Assembly: GCA_014238615.1 (NCBI GenBank)
Contig: JABAAT010000024.1
Span: 23,802-87,801, forward strand
Source of the DNA: Gammaproteobacteria bacterium
GTDB lineage: Bacteria > Pseudomonadota > Gammaproteobacteria > Porifericomitales > Porifericomitaceae
Length of the DNA stretch: 64,000 bases
Direction of reading: 5' to 3'
The translations under genes were made by a program, and so were the position numbers. Shown one piece after another: positions 25,291-46,483 of the stretch. The notes beneath the pieces are model-generated. The model was given only the letters and a program-made list of their open reading frames with translations, was not told where the DNA came from and did no database searches. Every line of letters begins with the position of its first letter. Position 1 is the stretch's first letter.

Positions 25291-26838
25291 TCAGCGTCGC
25301 AGTCCGGGAGAGCCCGGCTCCGGATTGACCAAGCGCCGCATCCAGGGCAGCAGGTCCGAAGCCTGCAGACCGCGTTCTCCGCCCTCCGCGGCGGCGGCGG
25401 CGGCCGCGGCCGCATGCAGACAAACACCAAGCCTGGCCGCCGCGGGTCGGGCCAGACCTTGCGCCAGCAGGGCGGCGATCATCCCGGTGAGCACATCCCC
25501 GGTACCTCCCGCGGCCAGTCCCGGGTTGGCCGTTGCACATAAATCCAGGCCCGTTTCATCCGCCACCAGGGTACCGGCACCCTTCAACACCACCGTACCG
25601 CCGAGCCGGTCGTGCAAAGCACGCGCCGCGGCCAGGCGATCCTCCTGCACCCGCTCCGTCCGCCAGCCCAGCAAACGGGCGGCTTCGCCGGGGTGCGGGG
25701 TATATACCCAGGCGCCCTCCCGTCCCTTCGGCGTAGGCTCTTGCTCCCGGGCCAACAGGTTGAGTGCGTCCGCGTCCAGCACTCCCGGCAACCCTCGATC
25801 CGAACCGTGTGCCAGGAGCTGGTGCAGCAGCGCACACGCGCGCGGCGCGCGCCCCAGGCCCGGCCCCACGGCGAGCACCCCGGCCCGCTCCAGAAGCGCG
25901 GCCGGGGCGGCCGCCCCCCGCCGCAGGATGTGCATCATGACTTCCGGCGTCACGCCGGTCAGCGCGGGCCTGTCCAGCAACAAGGCGCTGACCAGCCCCG
26001 CGCCGCAACGCGCCGCCGCCGCCGCCGCCAAGGCCACGGCGCCGCTGTACCCCGCCGCGCCACCCACCACCAGCACATGCCCGAAGTCCCCCTTGTGCGC
26101 GGCGCGCCGACGCGGCGGCAGCAGTCCCTCCAGAACTTGCAGTTCCAGGCGGCCGCAATCCGGCGGCACTTCCCGGTACAGCGCGGCTGGCAGCATCAGC
26201 TCGCTACAGTAGATCGTACCGGCGTACTCCGCCCCAAGGCCGGTAAACAGCCCCGGTTTCAGACCGAGGAAAGTCAGGGTCGCCTCGGCTGCCGGAGCAG
26301 TCCCCATCACCCGCCCCGTGTCAGCATGCAGTCCGGAGGGCAGATCCAGGGCCAGCACCGGCCGGGCACTCGCGCGTACCGCCTCGATCACCTCGGCGAA
26401 GGGTGCACGCACCTCCCGTTCCAGGCCGATCCCCAGCAGGCCATCCACCACCAGGTCGTTGTCCTTAAGCTTCCCCGGATCCCAGGCTTCCACGGCGCCG
26501 CCCGCTTCCCTCCAGCGCCGCGCCGCCTGCGCGGCGTCGCCGCGCGGCGCCCCGTCCACGAGGCTCACCACGAGGCTCAGCACCTGCACATGGCGGCCCG
26601 CCTCGCGTGCCAAGCGCGCCAGCACCAGGGCGTCGCCGCCGTTATTTCCACCGCCGCACAGCACCAAGAGGCGCCGCGCCTCCGGCCACAACGCCTGCAG
26701 CAACTGCCAGGCGGCCTGCCCGGCGCGCTCCATCAGTTCAGGTCCGGTGATCCCGCGACGTTCGGCCAGGGATTCCAGTTCCCGCAGCCGCGCCGTGCTG
26801 TACAGGCGGCGCGGCAGGGTACAGCCGCTCAGCAGCAT
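25291..26838 (-). CDS. nnr: Bifunctional NAD(P)H-hydrate epimerase/dehydratase
   Basis: LMERAG, GGGNNGGD, DGLLGIG, DLPSG, HKGDFG, DADAL, TPHPGEA, LKGAGT, GGTGDVL. Confidence 0.96.
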   Translation of the reverse strand: MLLSGCTLPRRLYSTARLRELESLAERRGITGPELMERAGQAAWQLLQALWPEARRLLVLCGGGNNGGDALVLARLAREAGRHVQVLSLVVSLVDGAPRGDAAQAARRWREAGGAVEAWDPGKLKDNDLVVDGLLGIGLEREVRAPFAEVIEAVRASARPVLALDLPSGLHADTGRVMGTAPAAEATLTFLGLKPGLFTGLGAEYAGTIYCSELMLPAALYREVPPDCGRLELQVLEGLLPPRRRAAHKGDFGHVLVVGGAAGYSGAVALAAAAAARCGAGLVSALLLDRPALTGVTPEVMMHILRRGAAAPAALLERAGVLAVGPGLGRAPRACALLHQLLAHGSDRGLPGVLDADALNLLAREQEPTPKGREGAWVYTPHPGEAARLLGWRTERVQEDRLAAARALHDRLGGTVVLKGAGTLVADETGLDLCATANPGLAAGGTGDVLTGMIAALLAQGLARPAAARLGVCLHAAAAAAAAAEGGERGLQASDLLPWMRRLVNPEPGSPGLRR

Positions 26839-26850
26839 GACCGGCCGGAG

Positions 26851-27396
26851 CTAGCGCCCCGCAAACAGCAATTCGTAGTAAGTCCGCAGTTCACTGATGG
26901 AATCGCGTACATCCTGCAGGGCGCGGTGCGCGGACTGTTTTTGCACGGGCGGCGTATGCGGCCGCCAGCGCTGCATCAGTTCCTTGAGGGTGCTGACGTC
27001 CAGGTTGCGGTAATTGAAGAAGCGCTCCAACTCCGGCATATGCCGAAACAGGAAACGGCGATCCTGGCAGATGCTGTTCCCGCACATCGGCGAACTGTTA
27101 GGGCTGACCCACGAGCGCAGGAACTCCAGCGTGGCCGACTCCGCAACGCGCGTCTCCAGGGTGCTCGCGCGCACCTGCTCCAGCAGCCCGGAGATCGTGT
27201 GTTGGCGGGTGTTCCATTCGTCCATGGCAAGCAACACCCGTTCTTCCTCGTGGAGCACCAGTTCGGGCCCCACCGCCACCTCCCGTAATTCATTGTCGGT
27301 GACCACCGTGGCGAGTTCAATGATATGATCCCGGTCCGGATCCAGACCGGTCATCTCCAAGTCGATCCAGATTAATCTGTCTGCGGATGCCTGCAT
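26851..27396 (-). CDS. orn: Oligoribonuclease
   Basis: [42 protein letters not shown]. Confidence 0.97.
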
Positions 27397-29680: not shown

Positions 29681-31732
29681 TCAACCTGGCGCGGCCTCCA
29701 GAAGGCCGCTGTAGCGCAGCAGGGATTCAAGCCGGGGAGCACGACCGCGAAAGTTCCGAAATAAGTGCCTGGGATCGTGCACGCCGCCCTGCTCCAGAAC
29801 CTCCTTCAGGAAGGAGCGTCCGACCTCGGCGTCAAGGGTTCCGGTTTCCTCAAAGCGGGAGAAGGCATCCGCGGCCAGCACCTCGGCCCACAGGTAACTG
29901 TAGTAGCCGGCGGCGTAACCGCCGGCGAAGATATGCGCGAAGCTGTTCTGGAAGCGGTTGAATTCAGGAGGATGAAACACGGAGATCCTGGATCGTGTTT
30001 CGTTCAGGATGCATTGCAGGTCCAGGCCCCTGGGAGTGCCGTACTCCAAGTGCAGGCGCATGTCAAAGACGGCGAATTCCAACTGCCGCAGGATGCGCAG
30101 GCCTGCCTGGAAAGTGCGCGCGTCGCGCAGACGGCGCAGCAGGTCGCCCTGTACAGGCAGGCTGTTCTCAACGTGGGCACTACACCAGGCCAGGGCAGGT
30201 CCATCCCAACCCCAGAACTCCAGCAGTTGGCTGGGAAACTCCACCGCGTCCCAAGGGACGCCGTTGATGCCGGAGACACCGGCGCAGTCCACGCGGGTCA
30301 GCAGGTGGTGCAGGCTGTGGCCGAATTCGTGGAACAGCGTGATGACCTCCTCGTGGGTCAGCAGTGGCGGGCGGCCGTCCAGCGCCGGTGTGAAATTGCA
30401 GGTCAGATAGGCCACCGGTTGCTGCCGCCCCGCGGCACCGCGCCGCCGTACGATGCACTCATCCATCCAGGCGCCTCCGCGCTTGTGCGGCCGCGCGTAC
30501 AGATCCAGGTAGATGCCTCCCCGGGGAGCGCCGTCCTCACCATACAGCCTGTAAAACAGCACATCCGGATGCCAGACCGGCACTTCAGCATCCACCCGCG
30601 CATCGATCCCAAACAATCCCCCGAACACCCGGAACAAACCGCTCAGCACCCGCTCCACCGGGAAATAAGAGCGCAGGGCTTCCTGGTCCAGGGCGTGGAG
30701 TTCGCGCCGCAGACGCTCGGAGTAATAGGGCAGATCCCAGGCCTCGAGGTCGCCTTCCAGGCCGTCGGCGGCGGCCTTCCGGCGTACTTCCTCCAGCTCC
30801 TGCTCGGCCCTGGGGTGCGCGCGTTCCGCCAAGTCGTGCAGAAAATCCAGTACTTCCCGCGGAGAGTCCGCCATTTTGCGCTCCAGCGAATAGTGCGCGA
30901 AGCTTGGGAACTCAAGCAGCGTGGCCTGTTCCCGGCGCAGGGCGAGGATTTCGTACATGATGGGTGTGTTATCCCAACGGTCGGCCCGCGGCCCCCGCTC
31001 CGAGGCGCGCGTGACATGAGCCTCGTAGAGCTCCCGGCGCAATTCACGCGAGCGCAGATACTTCATGGCCGGCAGGTAGCAGGGTTGCTCCAGGGTCAGC
31101 ACCCAGCCGTCCAGCTTGCGATCCTGGGCGGCGCGTTGCGCCAGCGCCAGAAGGCCCGGCGGCAGACCCTCCAGCTCGGCGCGGGTGCCGCAGTGCCTGT
31201 ACCAGCCATGGGTGGCATCCAGCACGTTCTGTTCAAACCGCATCTGCAGTTCCGACAGGCGCCTCCGGATCTCCCTGAGGCGTCGCCGGGGACCGGTGCG
31301 CAGTTGCACGCCGGCCAGCCGGAAATCGCGCAGCATGTTATCCACGACGCGGCGACGCGACGCGTCCAATTCATGAAACGCGGCGGTGGCGCGTAATGTG
31401 CGCACCGCCTTGCATAACCCCTCATGCTGCTCCAACTCGCTTTGATAGTTTGAGAAGAGCTCCAGGCAGACACCATAGGCGGCCCGCAGCTCTTCGCTGT
31501 CGGCCACCGCGTGCAGATGGGAGATCACGGACCAGACCCGGGCCAGGCGATCCTCCATCTCCTCCAGGGGCGCGAGGCAACGCTCCCAGGTGGGCGGCCC
31601 GGGCTGCTTCAGCAATTCCTCCAGGCCACGGCGGTTAACCGCCAGGAGTTCCCTGACAGCTGGCTCCGCATGCACGGGCCGCACCTGCTCAAAAGGCGGC
31701 AGGCCGCGCATCTCCAACAGAGGATTACTCAT
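29681..31732 (-). CDS. prlC: Oligopeptidase A (M3)
   Basis: MSNPLL, YARPHKRGGAWMD, FHEFGHSLHH, WDAVEFPSQ, GGYAAGYYSYLWAEVL. Confidence 0.95.
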   Translation of the reverse strand: MSNPLLEMRGLPPFEQVRPVHAEPAVRELLAVNRRGLEELLKQPGPPTWERCLAPLEEMEDRLARVWSVISHLHAVADSEELRAAYGVCLELFSNYQSELEQHEGLCKAVRTLRATAAFHELDASRRRVVDNMLRDFRLAGVQLRTGPRRRLREIRRRLSELQMRFEQNVLDATHGWYRHCGTRAELEGLPPGLLALAQRAAQDRKLDGWVLTLEQPCYLPAMKYLRSRELRRELYEAHVTRASERGPRADRWDNTPIMYEILALRREQATLLEFPSFAHYSLERKMADSPREVLDFLHDLAERAHPRAEQELEEVRRKAAADGLEGDLEAWDLPYYSERLRRELHALDQEALRSYFPVERVLSGLFRVFGGLFGIDARVDAEVPVWHPDVLFYRLYGEDGAPRGGIYLDLYARPHKRGGAWMDECIVRRRGAAGRQQPVAYLTCNFTPALDGRPPLLTHEEVITLFHEFGHSLHHLLTRVDCAGVSGINGVPWDAVEFPSQLLEFWGWDGPALAWCSAHVENSLPVQGDLLRRLRDARTFQAGLRILRQLEFAVFDMRLHLEYGTPRGLDLQCILNETRSRISVFHPPEFNRFQNSFAHIFAGGYAAGYYSYLWAEVLAADAFSRFEETGTLDAEVGRSFLKEVLEQGGVHDPRHLFRNFRGRAPRLESLLRYSGLLEAAPG

Positions 31733-31959: not shown

Positions 31960-32148
31960 ATGAACTTCTCATGGGTCGATCTGATCATGGCGGGCGGCCT
32001 GGCCGCGCTGGTCCTGTTCTTTTTTACCCCGGGACTCAAGCAAACCATCCGGGAATCGCGGGAAGAGGAAAACCCGGACTGGATGGGCGCCTTGGTTCCG
32101 CTTGGCTTGGTCGTGCTCTTTATCGTGCTGCTGCTGATGCTCGCCTGA
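31960..32148 (+). CDS. Small two-TM membrane protein, uncharacterised
   Basis: 62 aa: hydrophobic N-helix, charged linker, DWMGALVPL plus C-terminal helix; resembles a widespread gammaproteobacterial hypothetical (from memory). Confidence 0.7.
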   Translation: MNFSWVDLIMAGGLAALVLFFFTPGLKQTIRESREEENPDWMGALVPLGLVVLFIVLLLMLA

Positions 32149-32240
32149 AGCGCCGCCCACGGCGGGTGCCCATGGTGATTCGGGCCGCACAACGACGGGT
32201 GGTCACCTGGTAACTGGAAGAATTCGGGACGCGCACGCAC

Positions 32241-32711
32241 TCAGTTCGTGACCGGAAGTGCGGGCACGTCCTCATACTCCGAAGCGCTTCCCCCCCGCGG
32301 CGCGGCCGCCTCCGACGCTCCCTCCTCCGATGCGCCAGGGGCCGCGCCGGAACCATCCAGACCCGCCTGTTCCTGTCCCGGCACGCTCCCCGTCGTGCCT
32401 TCCGGTATGACCGGCGCGACGAGATCGGTCTGCACCCCGTTGCCTTCAAGGAGTACGCTGCCACCGCGTAATTCCAGGCCGGTCAGGTACACCAGCAACA
32501 GGCAGATCACGCAGAACAGGCCGCCCAGGATGCCAGTGATGCGGGTCAGGAAATTGCCCGAACCGGCGCTGCCGAAGATGGTGCTCGAGGAGCCGCTGCC
32601 AAAGGCGGCTCCTATTCCGGCGCCACGCCCGCACTGCATCAGGATCAGTACCACCAGAGACACGGAAACGACACCGAAGGCAATCATCAGCAGGGTTTTG
32701 AAAATCGGCAT
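32241..32711 (-). CDS. secG: Preprotein translocase subunit SecG
   Basis: LILMQCGRGAGIGAAFGSGSSSTIFGSAGSGNFLTRIT; directly after tpiA. Confidence 0.93.
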   Translation of the reverse strand: MPIFKTLLMIAFGVVSVSLVVLILMQCGRGAGIGAAFGSGSSSTIFGSAGSGNFLTRITGILGGLFCVICLLLVYLTGLELRGGSVLLEGNGVQTDLVAPVIPEGTTGSVPGQEQAGLDGSGAAPGASEEGASEAAAPRGGSASEYEDVPALPVTN

Positions 32712-32785
32712 GAAATTTTTCTCCAAGGTCTCCAGGGGTCTCCGGAATGAAGACCCTTAAGGGCCGGCCTTCCCTAATGCGTATG

Positions 32786-32808
32786 CCCGGGTCCGGCCCG
32801 GACCCGGG
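32786..32808. terminator. Perfect 10-bp-stem hairpin between tpiA and secG
   Basis: CCCGGGTCCG-GCC-CGGACCCGGG; no U tract, so possibly a stabilising or processing hairpin. Confidence 0.45.
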
Positions 32809-32820
32809 ACAAGTTGTCAG

Positions 32821-33603
32821 TCAGCGCGCCTGGAACGCCGCCGCCGCGCGACAGATGGCAAGAAACTCCTGCGCCCGCAGCGAGGCGCCACCCACCAGGA
32901 CTCCATCCACATCCGGCATTTCAAACAGGGCCGCCGCGTTCTCGGCGCACACGCTGCCACCGTAAAGTATGCGCGTGTCTCGAGCATATTCCAACCCACG
33001 CGCGGCGATGCAGCCGCGCAGCAAGGCATGCATCTCCTGCGCCTGCTCAGCCCCGGCGGCCGCGCCGCTGCCGATGGCCCAGATCGGTTCGTAGGCCAGC
33101 ACCACGGGCCGCAAATCCCGGGGAGTACAGCTTGCCAGCACCGCTTCCAGCTGCCGGGTCACCACTTGCGAGGCCCGCCCGGCCTCGCGTTGCACCAGGT
33201 CTTCCCCCAGGCAGAGCACCGGCTGCAGCCCGGCGCGCCGGGCTGCCTTGAACTTAGCCGCCACCAAGGCATCACCCTCGCCATGGGAGCGGCGCCGCTC
33301 GGAATGACCGACCAGCACGAAGCGGCAATTATAATCCACCAGCATGGCGGCGGACACATCGCCGGTATGCGCACCATCCGGGTGCCGGCAGATATCCTGC
33401 GCGCCCCAGGCAATCGGACCGCCTTTCAGCACGCGCACCGCATCGGCCAGGTGCACGAAAGCCGGCAACACCGCGATCTCCGGCGCACCGGGACTCAGCT
33501 CGGCGGCGCACAGCTCCCGGAGCAATGCACGCACCTTTGCCTGGTCTCCATGCATCTTCCAATTGCCCATGACCAGCAGGGGGCGTTGTTTCAGCGCACG
33601 CAT
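32821..33603 (-). CDS. tpiA: Triosephosphate isomerase
   Basis: GNWKMHG, GAHTGDVS, GHSERR, AYEPIWAIG, LYGGSV, LVGGASL. Confidence 0.97.
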   Translation of the reverse strand: MRALKQRPLLVMGNWKMHGDQAKVRALLRELCAAELSPGAPEIAVLPAFVHLADAVRVLKGGPIAWGAQDICRHPDGAHTGDVSAAMLVDYNCRFVLVGHSERRRSHGEGDALVAAKFKAARRAGLQPVLCLGEDLVQREAGRASQVVTRQLEAVLASCTPRDLRPVVLAYEPIWAIGSGAAAGAEQAQEMHALLRGCIAARGLEYARDTRILYGGSVCAENAAALFEMPDVDGVLVGGASLRAQEFLAICRAAAAFQAR

Positions 33604-33617
33604 GCCGCCGGATCCGC

Positions 33618-36374
33618 TCAGGCCGATGCCTCGTAGGCGCGCCGGTCTGAATCGGTCGCATCGTCGGCTGCCTGGCCTTGACGGCGGAGTGCCTTCAGGG
33701 CGGCGCGCTTCAGGCTGTTCAGGATACCGCTCTGGCCGGTATGGGTGCAGGGCACCCAGGGGACCCGTGCTTCCCGGAGACATTCGCGCAGGTGGCGCCC
33801 TAACTGGGTGCGCATCATCTCCATCAGGACCACCACGTCGGCCTGGCGGCACTCCTTCCCGAGTTGATCTTTGATCCGCCCCCAGTTGGAAGTCCAGCCG
33901 GTGTGGTGAAATTCCACCCGTACTCCCGGCCAGCACCGGCTTAACTCTTCCCTGATGGGTGCATCATAAGGCTCCTGCCGTTCATCACCGCCCACAAAGA
34001 TGATCCGCAGCGACGCACCTTTCCGGAGTAGCGCGTCCTCGTCATCATCCAGCACCGGCGCCGGCGGCGTCTCCGGAAGCGCCTCATGCAGACCCTGGAG
34101 CGCTTCCCGGTAACCCCAATCCCGCATCACCTCCAGGATCTCCTTAGCCTGCGCCAGGTCCTGGTCCCGCACCTTGAAGAACAATTCGCGCAGCAACGCT
34201 CCGCATTCCTGATCCCGGCCCAGGTCACGGAGCAGAAAAACCCTGGTCCAGGCGGCCTCCGACCACTTCCAGGCCGGGTCGTAACCCTCGGAGCGCTTCA
34301 ACAAATCAATGAAATCCTGCTTATGGGCATCCTGTTCCATGGCCAGGATCTGCATGATATCCAGCACCTGGACAGCTTTCTCCAGTTGCTCGCCGCGTTC
34401 CCGCTCGCGCAGCCCGCGCCGGCTGCCTTCCAGCAGCCTTGGCAACAAGTCATACGCCGCTTTCCAGCGCAGGCTGTAGCCATGCCGCTCGTCACGCAAA
34501 TATTCCAGGTAGTGCTTCTGCAGGACGTCAGAATGATTCAACATCTCCGGATCCGTGTCCAGAACCTCTAAGGCTTCGGCGCCGCAGTACGACCAGATCG
34601 ACTCGGCGATGCGCGCCGCCGTCACTGAATCTATCAACGCGGCGTCCTCCCAAAATTTCTTCACATGCTCGTGCGGAAAGCGGCCGGCGCCAGGGCTGAT
34701 CTGCTTCCAACATTCGTAGGCTTCAGCAAGTTGCGTCTTGTCGCCCAGCTTCGGCATGCCCAGAACGCTCTGGAGAAACAGCGATTGGCCAAGCAGGCCG
34801 CTTTTCTCGTAGTAAGCCGCACTCTCGGAGGCGCGCATGCCGCGGCTCGCTTTCTGAGCATGTTGCAGCGCCTTCCATGACAATTTTTCCCGTTGCCCGC
34901 CGGGAACCTCCCAGTAACCCAGGTAAGCCAGGAGGGAAAGTGCATGGTGGGCGGTGGTTACACCGCGCCCCCGTTGCTGCACGGCCTGCCGGAAGTACGG
35001 CTTCCCTTTACGTAACGACTCCAACAGGCAGGCGCGACGCTCGGCCTCCGGGGCCACCCGCAGCTCGTCCACGGACTTCAGGTTGCCGCAAGCCAGGCCC
35101 AGGTCGCTCAGCATGGCCGCGGAGACGCCGGCCTCACTCGCTCGCAGTTCCTGGAGGAATTCCCGGGCTTCCTGGAACCGACCTTCGCGCAATCTTGAGC
35201 GCGCCAGGCAATGGCGGATATCGCAGCTCAGGCGGGCCACCTCCTCGCCGGCGGCTGCGGCGCGCCGCAGCGTCTGCCCATCCAGTTGTTCCAAGGGCTT
35301 CAGCAGCAACCGGGCATCCTGATGACGTCCCGCACGCAGCCACCCGCGCGCCGCATCCACGGACTGCTGTGCCATCCACAGCAGGCCACCGGGCGGCGGG
35401 CGCTGCTCCAGCAGCTGCCCACCCAGCAACTGCAGGGCATATCCCAGCAGTTCCTTATTTTCCAGCAGCCGCGGGAAACAGAAAAAGGCGATGACGCGGC
35501 CGGCCTCATTCCCGGAAGCACGTTCAAAGACCCGGCCGAACTTCTCCAGCAAGGCTTTCAGGTTGCGGCGCAGGTCGGCCGCCGCGGCCAGCATCCCCGC
35601 CAGGCGCCATTCCCTGCACGCTTCATCGAAACCGGGAAGACTGACCTCCAGGTGCTCAACCTCGACGGAGGTGTCCGAGGCATCCATGAAACCCTGGTGA
35701 AAATGCACGGTATGGCGTTCCACATTGAGGCGGTACAGTTCGTCCAGCAATTCCCGTAATTGCTTGTGGGACAAGCTGCCGTGCTGCCTGGACAACATGC
35801 GCTTTACTTCTCTGTACAGCAACTGGTCCAGCAAGGTCAGCGGTTCCGGCAACCGCTTTTCATCGTGCTGCAGGAGCACCGGCGGACGCAGCAACGGCGC
35901 GGTCGATCGCGTGGGGTGCGCCTTCAACCAGAGCCGTACCGGTTCCGGCCGCGCGCCGGTCAATTCGCAACAAAGCCCCAGGATCACCCCGACCTGCTCC
36001 GGCGCACAGGAGGACTGCTTCGGCAAACTTTCCAGGGCCTGCCAGGCATTCCGGGAGACCCTGTCACCCCCGCCTTCCGGCCAGTGTTTCAGGGCCGGCA
36101 ACCCCCAATCCACCATCAGTTGCCAGGCCAGGCCCTCCAGGAGTTTCCTCAGGGCCGGTCCCCGCATACGCCGCAGCGCCTCACTGCGCCACAATGCGAC
36201 GAGTTCATCCCGGCTTTTCCTGCGCAATTGCACGGCCCGCGATTTCCGCCACTCGGCCAGCCACTTACAGACATCATCTCGATGCTGCTCCACGAACAGG
36301 CGCGTGGCCCGGTTCTGCAGGTCACGGTCCAGGTGTTCCCAAGTGCGCCGCAACCAGTCGGTGGCCGGACTCAC
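33618..36374 (-). CDS. Large uncharacterised alpha-helical/TPR-like protein with a C-terminal DUF2325-like domain
   Basis: About 918-aa open frame; GTGA overlap with the rluB stop; TPR-like segments (ARGWLRAGRHQDARLLL, LARSRLREGRFQEAREFL); C-terminal LRIIFVGG..HTGWTSNW..ADVVVL. Confidence 0.8.
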   Translation of the reverse strand: MSPATDWLRRTWEHLDRDLQNRATRLFVEQHRDDVCKWLAEWRKSRAVQLRRKSRDELVALWRSEALRRMRGPALRKLLEGLAWQLMVDWGLPALKHWPEGGGDRVSRNAWQALESLPKQSSCAPEQVGVILGLCCELTGARPEPVRLWLKAHPTRSTAPLLRPPVLLQHDEKRLPEPLTLLDQLLYREVKRMLSRQHGSLSHKQLRELLDELYRLNVERHTVHFHQGFMDASDTSVEVEHLEVSLPGFDEACREWRLAGMLAAAADLRRNLKALLEKFGRVFERASGNEAGRVIAFFCFPRLLENKELLGYALQLLGGQLLEQRPPPGGLLWMAQQSVDAARGWLRAGRHQDARLLLKPLEQLDGQTLRRAAAAGEEVARLSCDIRHCLARSRLREGRFQEAREFLQELRASEAGVSAAMLSDLGLACGNLKSVDELRVAPEAERRACLLESLRKGKPYFRQAVQQRGRGVTTAHHALSLLAYLGYWEVPGGQREKLSWKALQHAQKASRGMRASESAAYYEKSGLLGQSLFLQSVLGMPKLGDKTQLAEAYECWKQISPGAGRFPHEHVKKFWEDAALIDSVTAARIAESIWSYCGAEALEVLDTDPEMLNHSDVLQKHYLEYLRDERHGYSLRWKAAYDLLPRLLEGSRRGLRERERGEQLEKAVQVLDIMQILAMEQDAHKQDFIDLLKRSEGYDPAWKWSEAAWTRVFLLRDLGRDQECGALLRELFFKVRDQDLAQAKEILEVMRDWGYREALQGLHEALPETPPAPVLDDDEDALLRKGASLRIIFVGGDERQEPYDAPIREELSRCWPGVRVEFHHTGWTSNWGRIKDQLGKECRQADVVVLMEMMRTQLGRHLRECLREARVPWVPCTHTGQSGILNSLKRAALKALRRQGQAADDATDSDRRAYEASA

Positions 36375-37225
36375 GCCGCGCACCCGCTCCGAGGAGCCTG
36401 TACACCGTCCGGGCACAGCAACTCACGTACCTTCCCGGGCGGCAGCTCCCAGCACTCCCCAGGGCGCGACCGGGGGGGCAGACTGAACGTCCCGAAGCGA
36501 ATTCGTACCAAGCGGCTGACCCGCAACCCCTGGGTTTCCCAAAGCCGCCGCACCTCGCGCCTGCGTCCCTCCAGGAGCACCACGTCATACCACTGGTTGC
36601 GCGCCCGACCGCGGCCGCTCCGCACGCGTTGAAACCGCGCCGGACGCCCGTCCAGGTACACCCCCTCCAGCAGGCGCCGCAACTGCGCGGGAGAAGCCCG
36701 GCCGTCGACACGCACCGCGTATTCCCGTTCCACGCCGCCGGAAGGATGCGCCAGGCGCTGCACCAGGTCGCCGTCATTACAGAACAGGAGCAGGCCGGAA
36801 GTATTGAAATCCAGGCGCCCAACGCTCAGCCAGGAGCCTGGTAATGGGGGCAATTGTTCGTAAACGGTCGGGCGGCCCTGGGGATCGTCACGCGTGCAGA
36901 TGCGCCCGACCGGCTTATGGTAAAGCAATACGCGCGGCACGCCCCCGGCGGCCCACTTCAGACGCAGCGGCCGGCCGTCCAGGCGCAGGTAATCCTTCGG
37001 TCCGGCGCGATCCCCGGGACAGGCCGGGCGGCCATTCAACTGGATACGCCCGGCCCGCAACCAGGCTTCGATCCGGCGCCGGGACGCGTACCCAGAGCGC
37101 GCCAGGAGCTTCTGAATGTATTCACCGCGCGGGGCAGCGGCAGCCCCGCCGGAAAGCTTGTCCGGGGTTGGAGCGGAAGCCGCCGCGTCGCGCACCCGCT
37201 GCTGCCTTGTGCGTGTCTCAGGCAC
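36371..37225 (-). CDS. rluB: 23S rRNA pseudouridine synthase B
   Basis: IQKLLARSGYASRR, YHKPVG, VGRLDFNTSGLLL, EREYAVRV, REVRRL. Confidence 0.93.
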   Translation of the reverse strand: MPETRTRQQRVRDAAASAPTPDKLSGGAAAAPRGEYIQKLLARSGYASRRRIEAWLRAGRIQLNGRPACPGDRAGPKDYLRLDGRPLRLKWAAGGVPRVLLYHKPVGRICTRDDPQGRPTVYEQLPPLPGSWLSVGRLDFNTSGLLLFCNDGDLVQRLAHPSGGVEREYAVRVDGRASPAQLRRLLEGVYLDGRPARFQRVRSGRGRARNQWYDVVLLEGRRREVRRLWETQGLRVSRLVRIRFGTFSLPPRSRPGECWELPPGKVRELLCPDGVQAPRSGCAA

Positions 37226-37230
37226 CTTGC

Positions 37231-38001
37231 CTATTTAGCACGCCAGTTCTGGGCCGCCCCCAGCGGCAAATCGCTGTTCAGCGTTCCGGGGGCGACCACC
37301 GGCGTGAGTCCCTCCTCGGCCACATCGGTCTCAGCAGGCTTTTCAATCGCCTCCGCAACGGCCTCGTCGTCCTCCTCCTCCGCGCCATCTCCCGCGCCTT
37401 CCTTGACCTGAACGGCGCCCTGCTCCGGCCACGGCGGTTTCAGCGCCTCCGGCAGTTCAGGCGCGTCCGGCAGGTCCGGCAGCTCCTTCAACGAACACAG
37501 GTTGAAGTAGTCCAGGAATTCATGGGTGGTGGCCAGCAGCTCCGGGCGGCCCGGCACCTCCCTGTGTCCCACCACCCGTATCCAGAAACGATCGAACAGG
37601 GTGCGCAGCACGCCGGTACTCTCGGAGACGCCCCGGATACGCTCGATCTCGCCCCGGGTGATGGGCTGCTGATAGGCGATGATGCAAAGCGTTTCCAACA
37701 CGGCGCGTGAGTAGCGCGGCGGCCGGACATGCTCCAGGCGCCGCACCCAGGGCGCGTAGTCGACGCGCACCTGGAAGCGATAACCACCGGCCACCCGGGA
37801 CAAAACGACGCCGCGTTCCGCATACTCATCACGCAGGCTTTGCAGGGCGGCGCACAGTTGCTTTCGATCCGGCGGCGGCGACGCGCGCTCGGTGAGCAAA
37901 AGCTCGAGGGCGCGCTCATCCAGCGGGCGCCCCGCGGCCATGAGCACGGCTTCCAGGATATTGCGCAAGCGCACCCCTTCATCTGCTCCGGATGCGGCCA
38001 C
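37231..38001 (-). CDS. scpB: SMC-Scp complex subunit ScpB
   Basis: LEAVL, VAGGYRFQ, YSRAVLETLCIIAYQQPITRGEIERIRGV, TTHEFLDYF. Confidence 0.95.
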   Translation of the reverse strand: MAASGADEGVRLRNILEAVLMAAGRPLDERALELLLTERASPPPDRKQLCAALQSLRDEYAERGVVLSRVAGGYRFQVRVDYAPWVRRLEHVRPPRYSRAVLETLCIIAYQQPITRGEIERIRGVSESTGVLRTLFDRFWIRVVGHREVPGRPELLATTHEFLDYFNLCSLKELPDLPDAPELPEALKPPWPEQGAVQVKEGAGDGAEEEDDEAVAEAIEKPAETDVAEEGLTPVVAPGTLNSDLPLGAAQNWRAK

Positions 38002-38003
38002 GT

Positions 38004-38798
38004 TCAGGCGGCCTTTCTCAGGTGGATGACGCCATCGCTTTCATGCTGCACCACCTCGATCGCGGAATCCCGCCACAGTTCCAGGATCGCCAGCAAGGTC
38101 ACCACGATACCGGCGCGACCCTCGGCGCTCTCAAGCAGTTCACCGAATTCCCGGAAATCGTCACCCCCAAGGCGGCCCAGCAGTACGCTCATGCACTCCC
38201 GCACGGAAAGCTGCACAGGCCGCAACAGCAGGCCTTCGCGCGTCTCGGCGCGACGCAGGGCTTCAACGCCGACCTTGAGCAGGCGTTCCAGGCTGACAGC
38301 CGGTAGCGGCACTTCCCTGGGAAAAGGAAATTCCACCAGCACCCGGTGCAGGTCGCGCTCCAGGCGCGGCAACTCATCCAGCCGCTCCGTGGCGCCCCGA
38401 AAGCGCTCATATTCCTGCAAGCGCCGCACCAGCTCCGCACGCGGATCCTCTTCCTCCAGTTCCTCCGGCTCCAGCCGCGGCAACAACACGCGGGATTTGA
38501 TATGCAGCAACACGGCAGCCATGCCCAGGTATTCGCCGGCCAGGTCCAGTTCCAACTCGCGCATGAGTTCAATGTAGCGCATGTATTGTTCGGTCACGGG
38601 AGCAATGGGGATATTCTCGATATCGATATCCTGCTTCCGGATCAAGTACAGCAGCAGGTCCAGCGGCCCCTCGAAGTCTCCGAGGAAAACCCGCAGGGCG
38701 CGCGGTGGAATGTACAGGGTGTCGGGCAATTCAGTCAGCGGCCGACCGCGCAGCATGGCCGGGGGTACTTCGGATGGTCGGCTTCCGGGTGCACTCAT
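38004..38798 (-). CDS. scpA: Segregation and condensation protein A
   Basis: YIPPRAL..FEGPLDLLLYLIRKQDIDI, AGEYL.MAA.L..IKSR.LLP, DPRAELVRRLQEYE. Confidence 0.95.
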   Translation of the reverse strand: MSAPGSRPSEVPPAMLRGRPLTELPDTLYIPPRALRVFLGDFEGPLDLLLYLIRKQDIDIENIPIAPVTEQYMRYIELMRELELDLAGEYLGMAAVLLHIKSRVLLPRLEPEELEEEDPRAELVRRLQEYERFRGATERLDELPRLERDLHRVLVEFPFPREVPLPAVSLERLLKVGVEALRRAETREGLLLRPVQLSVRECMSVLLGRLGGDDFREFGELLESAEGRAGIVVTLLAILELWRDSAIEVVQHESDGVIHLRKAA

Positions 38799-43931: not shown

Positions 43932-44235
43932 GGCCGTTACGTTCCATCATCTACTTAGTAGGGGAATGGGGGTGAAAGCGGCGGAAATGGTATATTATTC
44001 CCTGTTTTTAGGGAATTACCTACTATAATCCTCACAAATCCCCATGATTTTCACATAACCCTGTCCTATTTGCCCTGTCCCGCCTGGTGGGGGAAATGGG
44101 GGTGAAAGCGACGGGAGCAGCCGGAGCATCTGCCCGTGGGTGTCTAACTCGTTAGAGGGTTGAGGAAAGAGCGCAGAGGGTGTCTCCACGCTGCGCCGCA
44201 ACCAACCTGCGGCACCAACACTTAACGTAACGGCT
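43932..44235. mobile_element. MITE-like non-coding element A with terminal inverted repeats
   Basis: GGCCGTTACGTT (43932-43943) ... AACGTAACGGCT (44224-44235); AT-rich interior; no transposase. Confidence 0.4.
43965..44110 (+). repeat. 16-bp direct repeat AATGGGGGTGAAAGCG x2, 130 bp apart
   Basis: Copies at 43965-43980 and 44095-44110; the core GGGGGTGAAAG recurs at 48193-48203. Confidence 0.85.
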
Positions 44236-46483
44236 CCCCGGCTTGCAGGGAACGCAGCAGTTCCTCGGCTTCGCCGAGAAAGGGGGATTGGATCTCTCTC
44301 AGGATGCGCACGGCCCGGCCGACCTGTTGCTCGGCTTCATCCGTTCTGCCGGCTTCCTGCAGCAGCTCGGCGCCTCCCATCAGGGCCGCCGCCCCGTGAC
44401 CGCGGAGTACGGGGGTGGCCGCTTCGGCATAGTGCTCGGAGATTTCCTGGAATGCCTGGATGCCGGCTGCCCGGTCTCCATGCGCCACCAGGGTGGCCCA
44501 CTCCATGCGCAATTCGACCACGGTCTGCTGCAGGAGGGGGTGGCTCTCCTTACCATAGCGTTCCAGCGCGGCCTCCAGGAGCTTGATGCCCTTGCCGGAC
44601 TGCTGCAGCTGCAACAGCATCTGGCTGCGGTGCAGGTGAGCCAGGATCACCAGGTGCCTGACCTCCGGTGCGGGGTCGAGCAGGAATTCCTGGATCATCC
44701 CATCAAGGGAGTCAGCGGCCTCGCGCAGGCGGCCCGCAATGGCGGCGGCGATATTGCGGTACAGCCAGGCCGCGGCCAGGGCCGCCCGGGTGGCATCGCT
44801 AAAGGTGGTCGCCGACGCCTGCAGTTGCAGCAGGGGCTCCAGGACATCAATGGCCTTCTCCCAATCCTGCATGCGGTATAACAGCAACCCTTGATGGGTC
44901 TCGAGCTGGATGCGCGCCTGGGTCTGCGCCGGAAGCTTCCCGGTAAAGCGTTGCAGCGCCTGCTGAATGGCCTGCAGCGCCTCCACGGTCAGGCCGGCCC
45001 GCTCCAACAACCGGCTCTTGCCGATGAACAGGCGCGCACTCGCTTCCTGCAACTTCGCATCTTCGGATTCCGCGTGGCGCGCGGCGGCCTCTTCCAATAC
45101 CTCCAGGGCTTCCGGCAGACGCTGCGCGGCGGCCAGGAGCTCGGCCTGGTATTCCGCGACATCCAGAAGCCGCTCCTGGACCCGTGGGGACGGATCCGCG
45201 CTGAAACGCCGTTGGACGCGCTCAAAGGCCGCCAGCCGCCGTTCCTCCGCCGTGGCTTTTTCTTCTCCTTCTCCCTCCCATTCCTCGTGCTCCCCCCGCA
45301 GCAGCAGGGAGCGCAGGGCATAGGCACGTAAAGCTCCCTCCTCGTCATCCTGAAGGCTTTGCTCCAGGTCTCGCAGGGTCTCACGCGCCGCCCCCGGGCG
45401 CCGCGTTTCCACGAGGGTGGCGGCTCTCTGGATGCGGGCCTCCGCGACAAGTCGGCGCAGCATGACCGGGGTGGCGGCGGAGTAGCGCTCGACCAGCACG
45501 GCATAAAGCTCCAGGGCTTCCTCGTGGCGCTCCAGCCGTCGCAACAACCAGCCCTGCCTGAGCCGCGCCCGTGCCGCCCGGACACGCACCTCCTCCAGCC
45601 TGCTGTCCTCTCCCGCCTCGGCCAGGGTTTGCAGGGTCTGTGCAGCCTGGGCGAGTTCTCCGTTGGACTCCAGCACCTGGCTCTGCTGCAACAGCATCCG
45701 GGTGGCCAAGCTTTGCAACGCCGGGGAAGGGACGCCGGCCGCGTAGCGCTCCAGGAAATACTCCAGCACTTCCAACTGCTCGTCACGGCGGTCCAAACGC
45801 GCCAAGGTCAGCGCCTGCGCCTGCAGCGCGCGTCCGATCAGCAGTTGGCGGCGCTCTTCCAACTCCCACCCGGGAGACGGGGGACGAGCGGCGCGCTGGT
45901 AGGATTCCAGCGCTTCCCGCGGACGCATGAGCAGGGTCAGCATGTCTCCCTGGACCAACCAGGCTTCCGCGAGCAGATCCTCCAGGTCGGGTTCGGCGCC
46001 GTATTCCTCAAGCGTTTCCCGCAGCACGCGCTCGGCTTCTTCCGGACGGCCGAGCCGGGCGTGGGCGAAACCTTCCACCAATCCAGCCACTGCCAGGGCC
46101 GGGCGCGGGGCCGACTCCCGCATGCCGGCCGCGGGCCGGGCAAGCAGGGCCCGGCTCTCCTTCAATGCCTCCTCCGTACGCCCCAGGCGCAGCAACGCCA
46201 GGGCCCGGAAGGCCAGCGCTTTCAGGCGATCCGCCTCGTCCTCGGCCAGCTCCAGGGCGCGCTCCAGGGAGGTCAGGGCCGTTTCCGGTTGCCCCTGGCG
46301 CAGGGTTCCAACGCCGGCGCGCAACCAGGCATTGAAGTCGCCCGGTGCGCTCCCGGTGTCCTGTTCCGCCGACTCGGAGGCCGCCCCGGCCGGCTCAGCC
46401 TGGGCCAGCAAAAGCAGGGTTGAACAGGAGACGCCCGCCGGGCAGTCCACGCCCAGCAGGCTGACGAGCAACAGGTGAAACAT
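44222..46483 (-). CDS. Large TPR-repeat protein, probably exported
   Basis: Hydrophobic N-terminus, then many roughly 45-aa repeats (A.A....G..L..L.R.EEAL..Y..L.ERY). Confidence 0.85.
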   Translation of the reverse strand: MFHLLLVSLLGVDCPAGVSCSTLLLLAQAEPAGAASESAEQDTGSAPGDFNAWLRAGVGTLRQGQPETALTSLERALELAEDEADRLKALAFRALALLRLGRTEEALKESRALLARPAAGMRESAPRPALAVAGLVEGFAHARLGRPEEAERVLRETLEEYGAEPDLEDLLAEAWLVQGDMLTLLMRPREALESYQRAARPPSPGWELEERRQLLIGRALQAQALTLARLDRRDEQLEVLEYFLERYAAGVPSPALQSLATRMLLQQSQVLESNGELAQAAQTLQTLAEAGEDSRLEEVRVRAARARLRQGWLLRRLERHEEALELYAVLVERYSAATPVMLRRLVAEARIQRAATLVETRRPGAARETLRDLEQSLQDDEEGALRAYALRSLLLRGEHEEWEGEGEEKATAEERRLAAFERVQRRFSADPSPRVQERLLDVAEYQAELLAAAQRLPEALEVLEEAAARHAESEDAKLQEASARLFIGKSRLLERAGLTVEALQAIQQALQRFTGKLPAQTQARIQLETHQGLLLYRMQDWEKAIDVLEPLLQLQASATTFSDATRAALAAAWLYRNIAAAIAGRLREAADSLDGMIQEFLLDPAPEVRHLVILAHLHRSQMLLQLQQSGKGIKLLEAALERYGKESHPLLQQTVVELRMEWATLVAHGDRAAGIQAFQEISEHYAEAATPVLRGHGAAALMGGAELLQEAGRTDEAEQQVGRAVRILREIQSPFLGEAEELLRSLQAGEPLR

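What the first reader, a model, noticed from the sequence alone, without database searches (positions are those of the whole stretch)
33618..36374. About 918-aa helical-repeat protein with a DUF2325-like tail embedded in the rluB-tpiA core operon
Seen: an uninterrupted frame starting with a GTGA overlap on the rluB stop and ending 14 bp before the tpiA ATG, so co-transcribed with trpS-scpAB-rluB and tpiA-secG. It has no signal peptide or TM segment, is predominantly helical with TPR-like segments, and has a C-terminal alpha/beta domain (LRIIFVGGDE..FHHTGWTSNW..ADVVVLMEMMRTQLG..PWVPCTHTG). Established: neither the scpAB-rluB nor the tpiA-secG cluster normally contains such a gene. Inference: the tail resembles DUF2325 (receiver/flavodoxin-like fold). 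A large repeat scaffold plus a small effector-like domain is typical of sensor-effector conflict proteins. This could be an undescribed single-gene defence or surveillance system that has been domesticated into a housekeeping operon.
Basis: partly seen in the sequence, partly recalled or inferred. Interest (0 to 1): 0.7.

Follow-up and report, generated by a model that had tools for sequence, protein, structure and literature searches.

The report
Defence-island-type solenoid protein in housekeeping operon
A real 918-residue gene wedged between rluB and tpiA belongs to a large, unnamed protein family (helical repeat scaffold plus a small DUF2325-like domain). Elsewhere this family sits mostly inside anti-phage defence islands, so it is a credible but untested candidate immune or surveillance gene.

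Summary
On the minus strand, 36374..33618 is an uninterrupted 918-codon gene. Its GTG start overlaps the rluB stop (GTGA) and its stop lies 14 nt before the tpiA ATG. Composition matches the neighbours, and there is no TM segment or signal peptide.

It is not an orphan. Exhaustive HMMER finds 650 cluster representatives of a collinear ~900-aa family, all unnamed, with no Pfam, NCBIfam or PADLOC model. A confident AlphaFold model (pLDDT 89) shows an all-helical TPR-like solenoid ending in a four-stranded alpha/beta domain. That domain is the most conserved part. Relatives match DUF2325 end to end but below Pfam's threshold.

No homologue shares the rluB/tpiA context. In 15 of 26 informative locus groups the gene lies in defence or mobile islands:
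- after a DrmD-like SNF2 helicase plus an Hsp70/actin-like protein (a recurring trio);
- directly after hsdR or brxL;
- inside an Hma system;
- between ARMADA-like genes and Druantia III;
- beside GmrSD, MmeI or DarTG.

In Ectothiorhodospira and Zetaproteobacteria it sits among housekeeping genes, as here.

Verdict: a new, defence-associated family. The window copy is a long-resident solo member. Its function and mechanism are inferred, not shown.

The parts
33618..36374 (-). Gene X: 918-aa soluble protein (105 kDa) of an unnamed ~900-aa family
   Evidence: ORF and translation; called identically on public contigs; coding-type GC3 and native codon use; 650 homologous cluster representatives
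35910..36374 (-). N-terminal helical domain (aa 1-155), the less conserved part of the family
   Evidence: AF2 helices 4-152; most HMMER matches start near residue 175; conserved W12, L15 and R46
35565..35861 (-). Conserved helical motif region (aa 172-270): FTTLD ... LNxxRxRSxFHxGF ... NxxRRxWYLxG. The window copy keeps D183, R220, H226, G228, W256 and G260 but has N250D, R253C and R267D
   Evidence: Alignments A3, A4, A6; deviation count
34080..35564 (-). TPR-like alpha-solenoid (aa 271-765)
   Evidence: Family profile matches TPR/PPR proteins of the PDB (E 9e-9, profile positions 284-430); Foldseek hits are TPR superhelices such as Ctr9, OGT, TTC7 and SPY, with low TM scores; the window protein alone is sub-threshold for Pfam TPR
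33660..34016 (-). C-terminal four-stranded alpha/beta (Rossmann-like) domain, DUF2325-like (aa 787-905). Motifs: FVGGDERQ, HHTGWTSNWG, MRTQLGRHLR, PWVPCTHTG
   Evidence: AF2 strands 789-794, 818-823, 847-851 and 873-876 alternating with helices; family-invariant G796, E798, W831, R855, T856, G859 and R863; all 19 conserved columns kept in the window copy; DUF2325 sub-threshold full-length matches in relatives
36371..36374 (-). GTGA: start of X overlapping the stop of rluB
   Evidence: Sequence
33604..33617 (-). 14-nt spacer between the X stop and the tpiA ATG
   Evidence: Sequence
36371..37195 (-). rluB (S4 + PseudoU_synth_2), upstream neighbour
   Evidence: Pfam; gene call
32821..33603 (-). 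tpiA (TIM), downstream neighbour, followed by secG (32241-32711)
   Evidence: Pfam; gene call

Best explanation
X is a genuine gene for a cytoplasmic protein. It belongs to a widespread but patchily distributed, so far unnamed family. The family has an N-terminal helical region, a long TPR-like solenoid and a small, highly conserved C-terminal alpha/beta domain distantly related to DUF2325.

The family as a whole behaves like a conflict (anti-phage or anti-mobile-element) gene. It moves between phyla and usually sits in defence islands. There it is co-oriented directly behind ATP-dependent DNA-translocase-based systems.

Most likely working model (inferred): the solenoid is the binding platform for a protein or nucleic-acid cue or partner. 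In one clade that partner would be a DrmD-like SNF2 helicase plus an Hsp70/actin-like ATPase. The invariant polar pocket of the C-terminal domain binds or processes a nucleotide or nucleic-acid ligand and provides the output. That pocket comprises E798, Q800, W827, S829, N830, W831, R855, T856, R863, W873 and C876.

In this genome a solo copy has been resident long enough to take on the host's composition. It is wired into the trpS-scpA-scpB-rluB-X-tpiA-secG gene string, so it is probably made constitutively with housekeeping genes.

Shown: the gene is real; family membership; architecture; neighbourhoods. Inferred: defence role, ligand, partner binding and co-transcription.
For: - Real and native gene.
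- Family of 650 representatives, 169 at E<=1e-30, collinear over about 725 residues, named only 'hypothetical'.
- No Pfam, NCBIfam or PADLOC model.
- Confident model: solenoid plus four beta-alpha units.
- The C-terminal domain is the most conserved part: 45% mean column identity against 24-31% for the whole protein.
- DUF2325 is the only family recurrently hit.
- Weak hits of C-terminal-domain size to a YpsA-type SLOG protein and an N-deoxyribosyltransferase in BFVD.
- None of the fetched homologue loci shares the rluB/tpiA context.

Defence contexts:
- DrmD-like SNF2 (PADLOC DrmD, E 2e-265, full length) + ~490-aa protein + X in L029, L004/30/31, L032 and L046, with the 490-aa protein + X also in the truncated contigs L011 and L034.
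- DarT-DarG directly after X in L029.
- X between HmaB (DUF1156) and HmaC (DUF499), with HmaA and an nSTAND NTPase nearby, in L020.
- X between an Eco57I-type methylase / helicase-nuclease and DruH-DruE (Druantia III) in L013, and next to DruH in L027.
- hsdR directly upstream in L023 and L042; brxL directly upstream in L041; GmrSD directly downstream in L009; an MmeI-type enzyme nearby in L036.
- HTH-M78 plus PIN-like genes upstream in L003 and L039.
- The trio island in L046 is flanked by a duplicated EF-G 3' fragment, as integrated elements are.
Against: - The evidence is guilt by association only. No experiment exists and no catalytic or ligand assignment was made.
- No homologue was found on 2.9 M viral contigs, 50,697 phage records or 72,556 plasmids.
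- The window copy has no partner genes in 64 kb. It also has no tRNA, no Rfam element and no compositional anomaly.
- In Ectothiorhodospira the gene forms one clade in all 8 genomes sampled. It sits next to tPilZ-fleQ-fliEFG, which looks vertical and core-like.
- In Zetaproteobacteria it sits next to truA.
- The window copy departs from the family at 6 of 33 conserved helical positions, above the 90th percentile. This may mean a changed function.
- Only about 33 locus groups, all recovered through two C-terminal motifs, were inspected out of 650 clusters.
Confidence: 0.45

Rival explanations
1. Housekeeping scaffold or regulator in this lineage. X is, or has become, a cellular adaptor whose C-terminal domain binds a nucleotide or RNA. 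It would work with the genes it is transcribed with (RNA modification or ribosome biogenesis, chromosome organisation, or in other lineages flagellar regulation), not in immunity.
For: Tight operon embedding between rluB and tpiA. Native composition. All contigs carrying the identical TpiA also carry X. Ectothiorhodospira: one clade, syntenic with tPilZ-fleQ-fliEFG in all genomes sampled. Two independent adjacencies to pseudouridine synthases: rluB here and truA in Zetaproteobacteria. A stand-alone C-terminal domain protein sits in a housekeeping context in an Acidimicrobiales MAG. The window copy has diverged at conserved helical sites.
Against: The majority of informative loci are defence or mobile islands with no shared housekeeping partner. 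Distribution is patchy across phyla, and the closest relative is only 36% identical. No single housekeeping neighbour recurs across lineages.
Confidence: 0.3
2. Non-autonomous accessory subunit. X is not a single-gene system. It is a regulatory or adaptor subunit for SF2/SNF2 DNA translocases (DrmD-like, HsdR, HmaA). Solo copies such as this one would depend on a partner encoded elsewhere in the genome.
For: The SNF2 + ~490-aa + X neighbourhood is conserved in two gene orders, which argues for functional linkage. The X proteins of most of these modules form one clade. X is co-oriented directly after hsdR twice and sits inside Hma.
Against: Many family members have no translocase nearby, including the window, Ectothiorhodospira, Zetaproteobacteria and L010. 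The neighbouring systems are heterogeneous (BrxL, GmrSD, MmeI, DarTG), as expected for any gene that simply lives in defence islands.
Confidence: 0.15
3. Two-module nuclease sensor. The conserved R220-x5-H226 motif would mark a HEPN-like RNase in the helical region, and the C-terminal Rossmann-like domain would be its ligand sensor, as with CARF-HEPN proteins.
For: R220 and H226 are at least 90% conserved and lie at the start of a helix.
Against: Rx4-6H occurs 14 times in this Arg/His-rich protein. R220 is replaced in some members. A profile of the region finds no HEPN protein in the PDB. The window protein has no Pfam HEPN hit.
Confidence: 0.04
4. Spurious long ORF of a high-GC genome, or a decaying pseudogene.
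For: The window is 63-70% GC and full of long non-coding ORFs on both strands.
Against: Coding-type GC1/2/3 pattern throughout. 650 homologues are collinear end to end. All conserved C-terminal residues are kept. AF2 pLDDT is 89.
Confidence: 0.01

Closest known systems
DUF2325 (Pfam PF10087), e.g. Campylobacter jejuni Cj1384c
   Same: Small (~95-aa) alpha/beta domain. C-terminal domains of family members align with the whole profile (positions 1-93 of 94), and it is the only Pfam family hit repeatedly.
   Different: Scores are 12.8-17.6 bits against a cut-off of 33.6, and the window protein gives no hit. DUF2325 proteins are short stand-alone proteins of unknown function. Cj1384c is a 104-aa, Cys-rich protein induced by oxidative stress (PMC9426514). 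Here the domain ends a 900-aa solenoid and carries its own invariant motifs (GGNETQ, GWSSNW, RTxLGRxxR, PWxxCTG).
STAND/Avs-type (NLR-like) anti-phage sensors with TPR arms
   Same: Large TPR-like repeat region plus a small terminal domain; defence-island location.
   Different: There is no NTPase. The protein has no Walker A motif and no NACHT, NB-ARC or nSTAND hit. The terminal domain is constant across the family rather than swapped.
Class 1 DISARM / ARMADA arrays (DrmD/ArmA SNF2 helicase, adenine methylase, YprA helicase), often next to Druantia III
   Same: X neighbours a DrmD-like SNF2 helicase in several lineages. In L013 it lies between ARMADA-like genes and DruH-DruE. Such arrays are described on mobile elements (bioRxiv 10.1101/2025.09.15.676423; PMC13463889).
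   Different: X matches no DISARM, ARMADA-related or Druantia model in PADLOC. The papers describe no TPR/DUF2325-like component. The trio with the 490-aa protein lacks the methylase and the YprA helicase.
CoCoNuT type III CnuD (Hsp70-like NBD/SBD plus HEAT-like repeats)
   Same: A defence-linked pairing of an Hsp70-like ATPase with a helical-repeat module (PMC11090510), reminiscent of the 490-aa protein + X pair.
   Different: Different proteins with no detectable homology. The Hsp70-like nature of the 490-aa partner rests on four ordered motifs, and hhalign to DnaK gives only 4.8% probability. There is no McrBC here.
SLOG / N-deoxyribosyltransferase-type Rossmann-like nucleotide-binding domains (e.g. 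the ThsA SLOG sensor)
   Same: Small parallel beta-sheet domain with a Gly-rich loop after strand 1. Weak Foldseek hits of domain size to a YpsA-type SLOG protein and an N-deoxyribosyltransferase. One member has a weak YpsA Pfam hit.
   Different: E-values are about 0.2 with poor superposition. The domain could not be searched on its own. Family motifs differ.

Membership tests
DUF2325 (PF10087) | Score at or above Pfam's gathering cut-off (33.6 bits) | tested here: not met
   Window tail: no hit at E<=10. Relatives: 8 of 40 hit, best E 8.7e-4; those seen individually score 12.8-17.6 bits.
DUF2325 (PF10087) | Collinear match over the whole domain profile | tested here: met
   In three relatives the match covers profile positions 1-93, 1-91 and 2-92 of 94. 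This is not shown for the window protein itself.
DUF2325 (PF10087) | Same three-dimensional fold | not testable with these tools
   The model shows four beta-alpha units. The domain could not be folded or searched alone, and no DUF2325 structure was at hand.
TPR / alpha-solenoid repeat proteins | Repeat helix-turn-helix units detectable by profile and by fold | tested here: met
   Family profile against PDB TPR/PPR proteins gives E 9e-9. Foldseek top hits are TPR superhelices. The window protein alone is sub-threshold for Pfam TPR_2 (E 0.24).
STAND / Avs (NLR-like) sensors | Central P-loop NTPase (NACHT, NB-ARC or nSTAND) | tested here: not met
   No Walker A motif. No Pfam or PADLOC NTPase hit. 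The region is all-helical repeats.
Known anti-phage system components (PADLOC-DB v2: DISARM, BREX, Druantia, Hma, Dpd, PDC candidates and others) | Match to any component model | tested here: not met
   0 families at E<=1.
TIR domain | Pfam TIR-family match of the C-terminal domain | tested here: not met
   None among 40 C-terminal domains at E<=10.
CheY-like receiver domain | Profile similarity to a receiver domain | tested here: not met
   No Response_reg hit. hhalign of A5 against the receiver of the L016 hybrid kinase gives probability 0.1%.
HEPN RNases | Rx4-6H motif in a four-helix bundle, with homology to a HEPN family | tested here: inconclusive
   R220-x5-H226 is conserved. The motif occurs 14 times by pattern in this protein. 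No PDB or Pfam HEPN match.
FimV/HubP-type polar scaffolds (considered because X occupies the position upstream of truA in Zetaproteobacteria) | LysM domain, transmembrane segment, FimV C-terminal motif | tested here: not met
   No Pfam or NCBIfam hit and no hydrophobic segment. The expectation that FimV sits upstream of truA comes from my own knowledge.

The most novel reading that the evidence does not exclude
The family is the signature protein of an undescribed anti-phage system. It would exist in a three-gene form (DrmD-like SNF2 helicase + Hsp70/actin-like ATPase + X) and in autonomous solo forms. Its DUF2325-like domain would be a new nucleotide- or nucleic-acid-processing output module, which would also give the first function to the DUF2325 superfamily. 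The window copy would then be an immune gene hard-wired into a core operon of a bacterium that reaches very high abundance in a host-labelled sample.
Probability: 0.25. Interest if true: 0.8.

Novelty: new variant of a known kind. Interest (0 to 1): 0.6.

Why it matters
If the association holds, this is a sizeable family with no database model: 650 clusters at 50% identity, spanning Proteobacteria, Planctomycetota, Gemmatimonadota, Armatimonadota and Actinomycetota. It marks defence islands and forms a conserved trio with a DrmD-like helicase. That gives a concrete candidate for a new defence system. It also offers a handle on what DrmD-type helicases and DUF2325 domains do; the function of DUF2325 is unknown. 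The window copy adds a second question. How does a gene of a mobile, island-borne family become a fixed, translationally coupled member of a housekeeping operon? And does it keep an immune role there or take on a cellular one? Both questions can be tested with ordinary cloning, phage-challenge and pull-down experiments.

Tried and rejected
1. Word-indexed protein searches returned only the query, or three short C-terminal fragments. This was so with the protein, the full-length alignment and the C-terminal alignment (one search timed out). The family surfaced only with exhaustive HMMER.
2. The single-protein genome scan found nothing, and the 58-sequence alignment was too diverse to scan with. 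The 13-sequence alignment worked.
3. The single-sequence AF2 model was useless (pLDDT 47).
4. Foldseek of the whole model against PDB and BFVD is dominated by generic solenoids.
5. PDB profile searches were uninformative. The C-terminal domain and the 172-300 motif region gave only chance-level hits, and the 490-aa partner gave none.
6. No homologue was found on viral contigs, phage records or plasmids, using three different family members as queries.
7. The window has no Rfam family and no tRNA.
8. Looked for strain variants lacking X via the identical TpiA: none.
9. Literature: DUF2325 appears in five papers, none functional. The ARMADA/Druantia, CoCoNuT and two 'modularity' papers describe no X-like protein.
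10. Rejected: receiver, TIR, STAND, FimV, spurious ORF. See the membership tests.
Full report
**1. The observation**

The feature is on the minus strand. The ORF listing gives an open frame 36416..33618. The translation is uninterrupted. Public gene calls on the same sequence, and the family's own N-terminus (M1, W12, L15), place the start at the GTG at 36374, giving 918 aa.

The start shares its last base pairs with the rluB stop...GGC GTG A.... The TGA stop at 33620-33618 is followed by 14 nt and then the tpiA ATG.

Pfam confirms the surrounding genes, all on the same strand: trpS, scpA, scpB, rluB | X | tpiA, secG, an M3 oligopeptidase and xthA.

GC by codon position is 0.69/0.45/0.76, and a codon-adaptation index built from the neighbours is 0.63 against 0.61-0.71 for the neighbours. 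Both are indistinguishable from the neighbours along the whole gene, and there is no GC or skew anomaly. No 19-residue window is hydrophobic enough for a membrane helix (maximum 1.13), and there is no signal peptide.

Promoter-like and terminator-like sites are no more frequent than in shuffled sequence. Operon membership is therefore suggested by the overlap and spacing but is not proven. Two runs flagged as probable RNA from a host-labelled sample each contain a short contig over 33649-33883. One also has a contig across the scpB-rluB junction. This is weak evidence of expression only.

**2. It is not an orphan**

The word-indexed search returned only the query, and a single-protein genome scan found nothing. 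An exhaustive HMMER search of 1.84 billion cluster representatives found 650 proteins at E<=1e-3 and 169 at E<=1e-30. Almost all are 870-950 aa and collinear from about residue 175 to the end. The best is only 36% identical. Those with any name are 'hypothetical protein'.

The window protein has no significant Pfam match, only sub-threshold TPR hits at E 0.24 and 0.5. It has no NCBIfam or PADLOC match at E<=1.

**3. Architecture**

With an 82-sequence alignment, AlphaFold gives a confident model (mean pLDDT 89, pTM 0.79). It has these regions:
- helices from 4 to 152;
- a disordered linker at 156-171;
- continuous helical repeats from 181 to about 765;
- four beta-alpha units, with strands at 789-794, 818-823, 847-851 and 873-876;
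- a long terminal helix.

The family profile matches TPR and PPR proteins of the PDB over profile positions 284-430 (E 9e-9). Foldseek returns only generic TPR superhelices at low TM scores.

Conservation is concentrated in two places:
- a helical motif region: FTTLD, LNxxRxRSxFHxGF, NxxRRxWYLxG;
- above all the C-terminal domain: [FY][VI]GGNE[TI]Q, [HF][TP]GW[ST]SNW, RTx[LF]GRxxR, PWxxCTGxG.

In the 82-sequence alignment G796, E798, W831, R855, T856, G859 and R863 are invariant. The C-terminal domain has 45% mean column identity against 24-31% for the whole protein.

The window copy keeps all 19 strongly conserved C-terminal columns. It departs at 6 of 33 conserved helical columns: F179L, N250D, R253C, R267D, R388H and E675Q. 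That is more than 90% of family members do.

**4. The DUF2325 question**

The window tail alone hits nothing in Pfam at E<=10. Among 40 C-terminal domains of the family, PF10087 (DUF2325) is the only family hit repeatedly: 8 members, best E 8.7e-4. Where the matches were examined individually, they run over essentially the whole 94-position profile but score 12.8-17.6 bits against a cut-off of 33.6.

I read this as a remote relationship, not membership.

There is no TIR or receiver hit. hhalign against a bona fide receiver domain gives 0.1% probability. PDB sequence profiles give nothing for this domain. In the viral structure library, two weak hits of domain size are to a YpsA-type SLOG protein and an N-deoxyribosyltransferase (E about 0.2). 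These are leads only. DUF2325 itself has no known function in the literature I could search.

**5. Where the family lives**

Motif-based scans returned 25 genome loci and 15 metagenome loci. Two more came from exact look-ups. None contains rluB, tpiA or any other neighbour of the window gene.

The hosts span several phyla: Ectothiorhodospira (eight genomes), Sedimenticola, Thiolapillus, Burkholderiales, Zetaproteobacteria, Rhodobacteraceae, Planctomycetota, Gemmatimonadaceae, Armatimonadota and Acidimicrobiales.

I merged near-identical loci and set aside contigs too short to judge. That leaves about 26 informative locus groups, and 15 of them are defence or mobile contexts:

- A recurrent module of a ~1040-aa SNF2 helicase, a ~490-aa protein and X. 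The helicase matches PADLOC's DrmD model end to end (E 2e-265). The 490-aa protein has no Pfam model and no convincing PADLOC hit (one copy matches PDC-M61B at E 7.5e-5, 19.6 bits, over about 40 residues). The order is helicase-490-X in L029 and L004/30/31, and X-helicase-490 in L032 and L046. The 490-X pair is also present in the truncated contigs L011 and L034. In L029, DarT and DarG follow directly. In L046, X is reduced to a 204-aa remnant and an HNH gene lies between it and the helicase. That island also sits between a full EF-G gene and a duplicated EF-G 3' fragment.
- L020: X lies between a DUF1156 methylase and a DUF499 ATPase. An SNF2 helicase matching HmaA (E 2e-160) and an nSTAND NTPase are nearby. 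This is an Hma system as named by PADLOC (PMC8565338).
- L013: an intact X lies between an Eco57I-type methylase, a helicase-nuclease and DruH-DruE of Druantia III. L027 has X next to the same DruH. This resembles the ARMADA + Druantia III arrays described on mobile elements (bioRxiv 10.1101/2025.09.15.676423; PMC13463889). Those papers mention no X-like protein.
- hsdR is directly upstream in L023 and L042. brxL is directly upstream in L041. GmrSD is directly downstream in L009. An MmeI-type enzyme lies within 5 kb in L036.
- An HTH-M78 gene plus a PIN-like gene lie upstream in L003 and L039.

The 490-aa partner shows four motifs in the order expected of Hsp70/actin-like (ASKHA) ATPases: GLDFGTSSTKA, PEVAAGVxxY, FVDVGATTLDxS and LSGGG. 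hhalign to E. coli DnaK aligns the central motifs in register but with only 4.8% probability. This assignment is therefore an inference.

**6. The counter-pattern**

Nine informative groups are not in islands.

In Ectothiorhodospira the proteins form one clade. The gene always lies upstream of tPilZ, fleQ, a second sigma-54 activator, fliE, fliF and fliG. The upstream side varies: recBC, a DnaJ-TPR protein, or ahpCF plus a hybrid kinase. That looks like vertical inheritance within a genus.

In two Zetaproteobacteria, X is followed immediately by truA. In the window it follows rluB.

No relative was found on viral contigs, phage genomes or plasmids. The window has no DrmD-like or 490-aa homologue anywhere in its 64 kb, no tRNA and no Rfam element. 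Every contig carrying the identical TpiA also carries X.

**7. Interpretation**

The protein is not an orthologue of a characterised protein, and its homologues are neither fixed at this locus nor free of defence neighbours. The family-level evidence points to a conflict-system protein.

Its recurrent position directly behind SF2/SNF2 translocase-based systems, and the trio that survives a change of gene order, make a partnership with such enzymes plausible in at least one clade.

The domain logic is a variable solenoid with a constant, highly conserved small alpha/beta domain carrying an Arg/Trp/Glu pocket. This fits a binding platform coupled to a nucleotide- or nucleic-acid-binding or -processing module. 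Nothing here shows catalysis.

For the window copy specifically, three features allow equally for a retained surveillance role or a shift to a cellular role: long residence, tight coupling to housekeeping genes, and divergence at conserved helical sites. I put 0.45 on a defence-related function, 0.30 on a housekeeping role in this lineage and 0.15 on a non-autonomous accessory role. The HEPN idea is a low-probability lead, because the Rx4-6H pattern is frequent by chance in this protein and has no homology support.

**8. Novelty and limits**

No curated model or paper that I could search describes this family. Architecture and context make it a new variant within the broad class of defence-island repeat-scaffold proteins.

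Limits:
- Only about 33 of 650 clusters were examined. All were retrieved through C-terminal motifs typical of the clade nearest the query.
- The C-terminal domain could not be folded or searched alone.
- Sister genomes of the window organism could not be inspected.
- Nothing was tested experimentally.

Noticed in passing
window 36371-37195 (rluB) next to X; L017 12119-12892 and L018 3264-4040 (truA) next to X: In two unrelated lineages the gene directly abuts a pseudouridine synthase gene: rluB upstream here, truA downstream in Zetaproteobacteria. This could be chance, or a hint of an RNA-related role.
   Followed up: partly
window 33649-33883: Two runs flagged as probable RNA from the same host-labelled study each hold a short contig over the same ~230 nt at the 3' end of X. 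Its depth (15.5) is higher than that of other contigs in the region (2.5-4.9). This could be expression of X, an internal start for tpiA, or an assembly accident.
   Followed up: partly
window 32000-38200 in run X4: The contig carrying this region has about 555x depth in a sample labelled with a host organism, against about 12x in marine metagenomes. The bacterium may be a dominant associate or symbiont of that host.
   Followed up: no
L029 6989-8464; L032 6777-8285; L031 1633-3099; L046 12589-14055: The ~490-aa partner protein has no Pfam model and no convincing PADLOC or PDB hit. It carries Hsp70/actin-like ATPase motifs in the canonical order. It looks like an unmodelled ASKHA family tied to DrmD-like helicases.
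   Followed up: partly
L046 7230-16615: An island holding an X remnant, an HNH gene, an SNF2 helicase, the 490-aa protein and a nucleotidyltransferase sits between a full EF-G gene and a duplicated EF-G 3' fragment. This is the signature of an element integrated at the 3' end of a gene.
   Followed up: no
L012 2326-4122: In a Rhodobacteraceae MAG the family member is split into two frames (193 + 390 aa). This is either a pseudogene or an assembly error.
   Followed up: no
L005/L006/L014/L019/L025, downstream of X: All Ectothiorhodospira copies lie just upstream of the flagellar master-regulator block (tPilZ, fleQ, second sigma-54 activator, fliE, fliF, fliG). The upstream flank differs between species.
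   Followed up: partly
window 44222-46483 (-): A second large repeat protein of 753 aa, with many strong Pfam TPR hits and a hydrophobic N-terminus, lies about 8 kb away. It is unrelated in sequence to X, as far as the X family search showed.
   Followed up: no
L024 6695-9103 and L040 2036-3883: Two related family members (Planctomycetia and a metagenome contig) are each preceded by a large protein whose only recognisable feature is a SEC-C motif. This may be another recurrent partner.
   Followed up: no
window 24000-46000, both strands: Many ORFs of 150-560 aa overlap the real genes in other frames or antisense to them, for example 25612-27288 (+) and 29765-31396 (+). This is typical of 65% GC DNA and is a caution against reading ORF length alone as evidence of a gene.
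   Followed up: no
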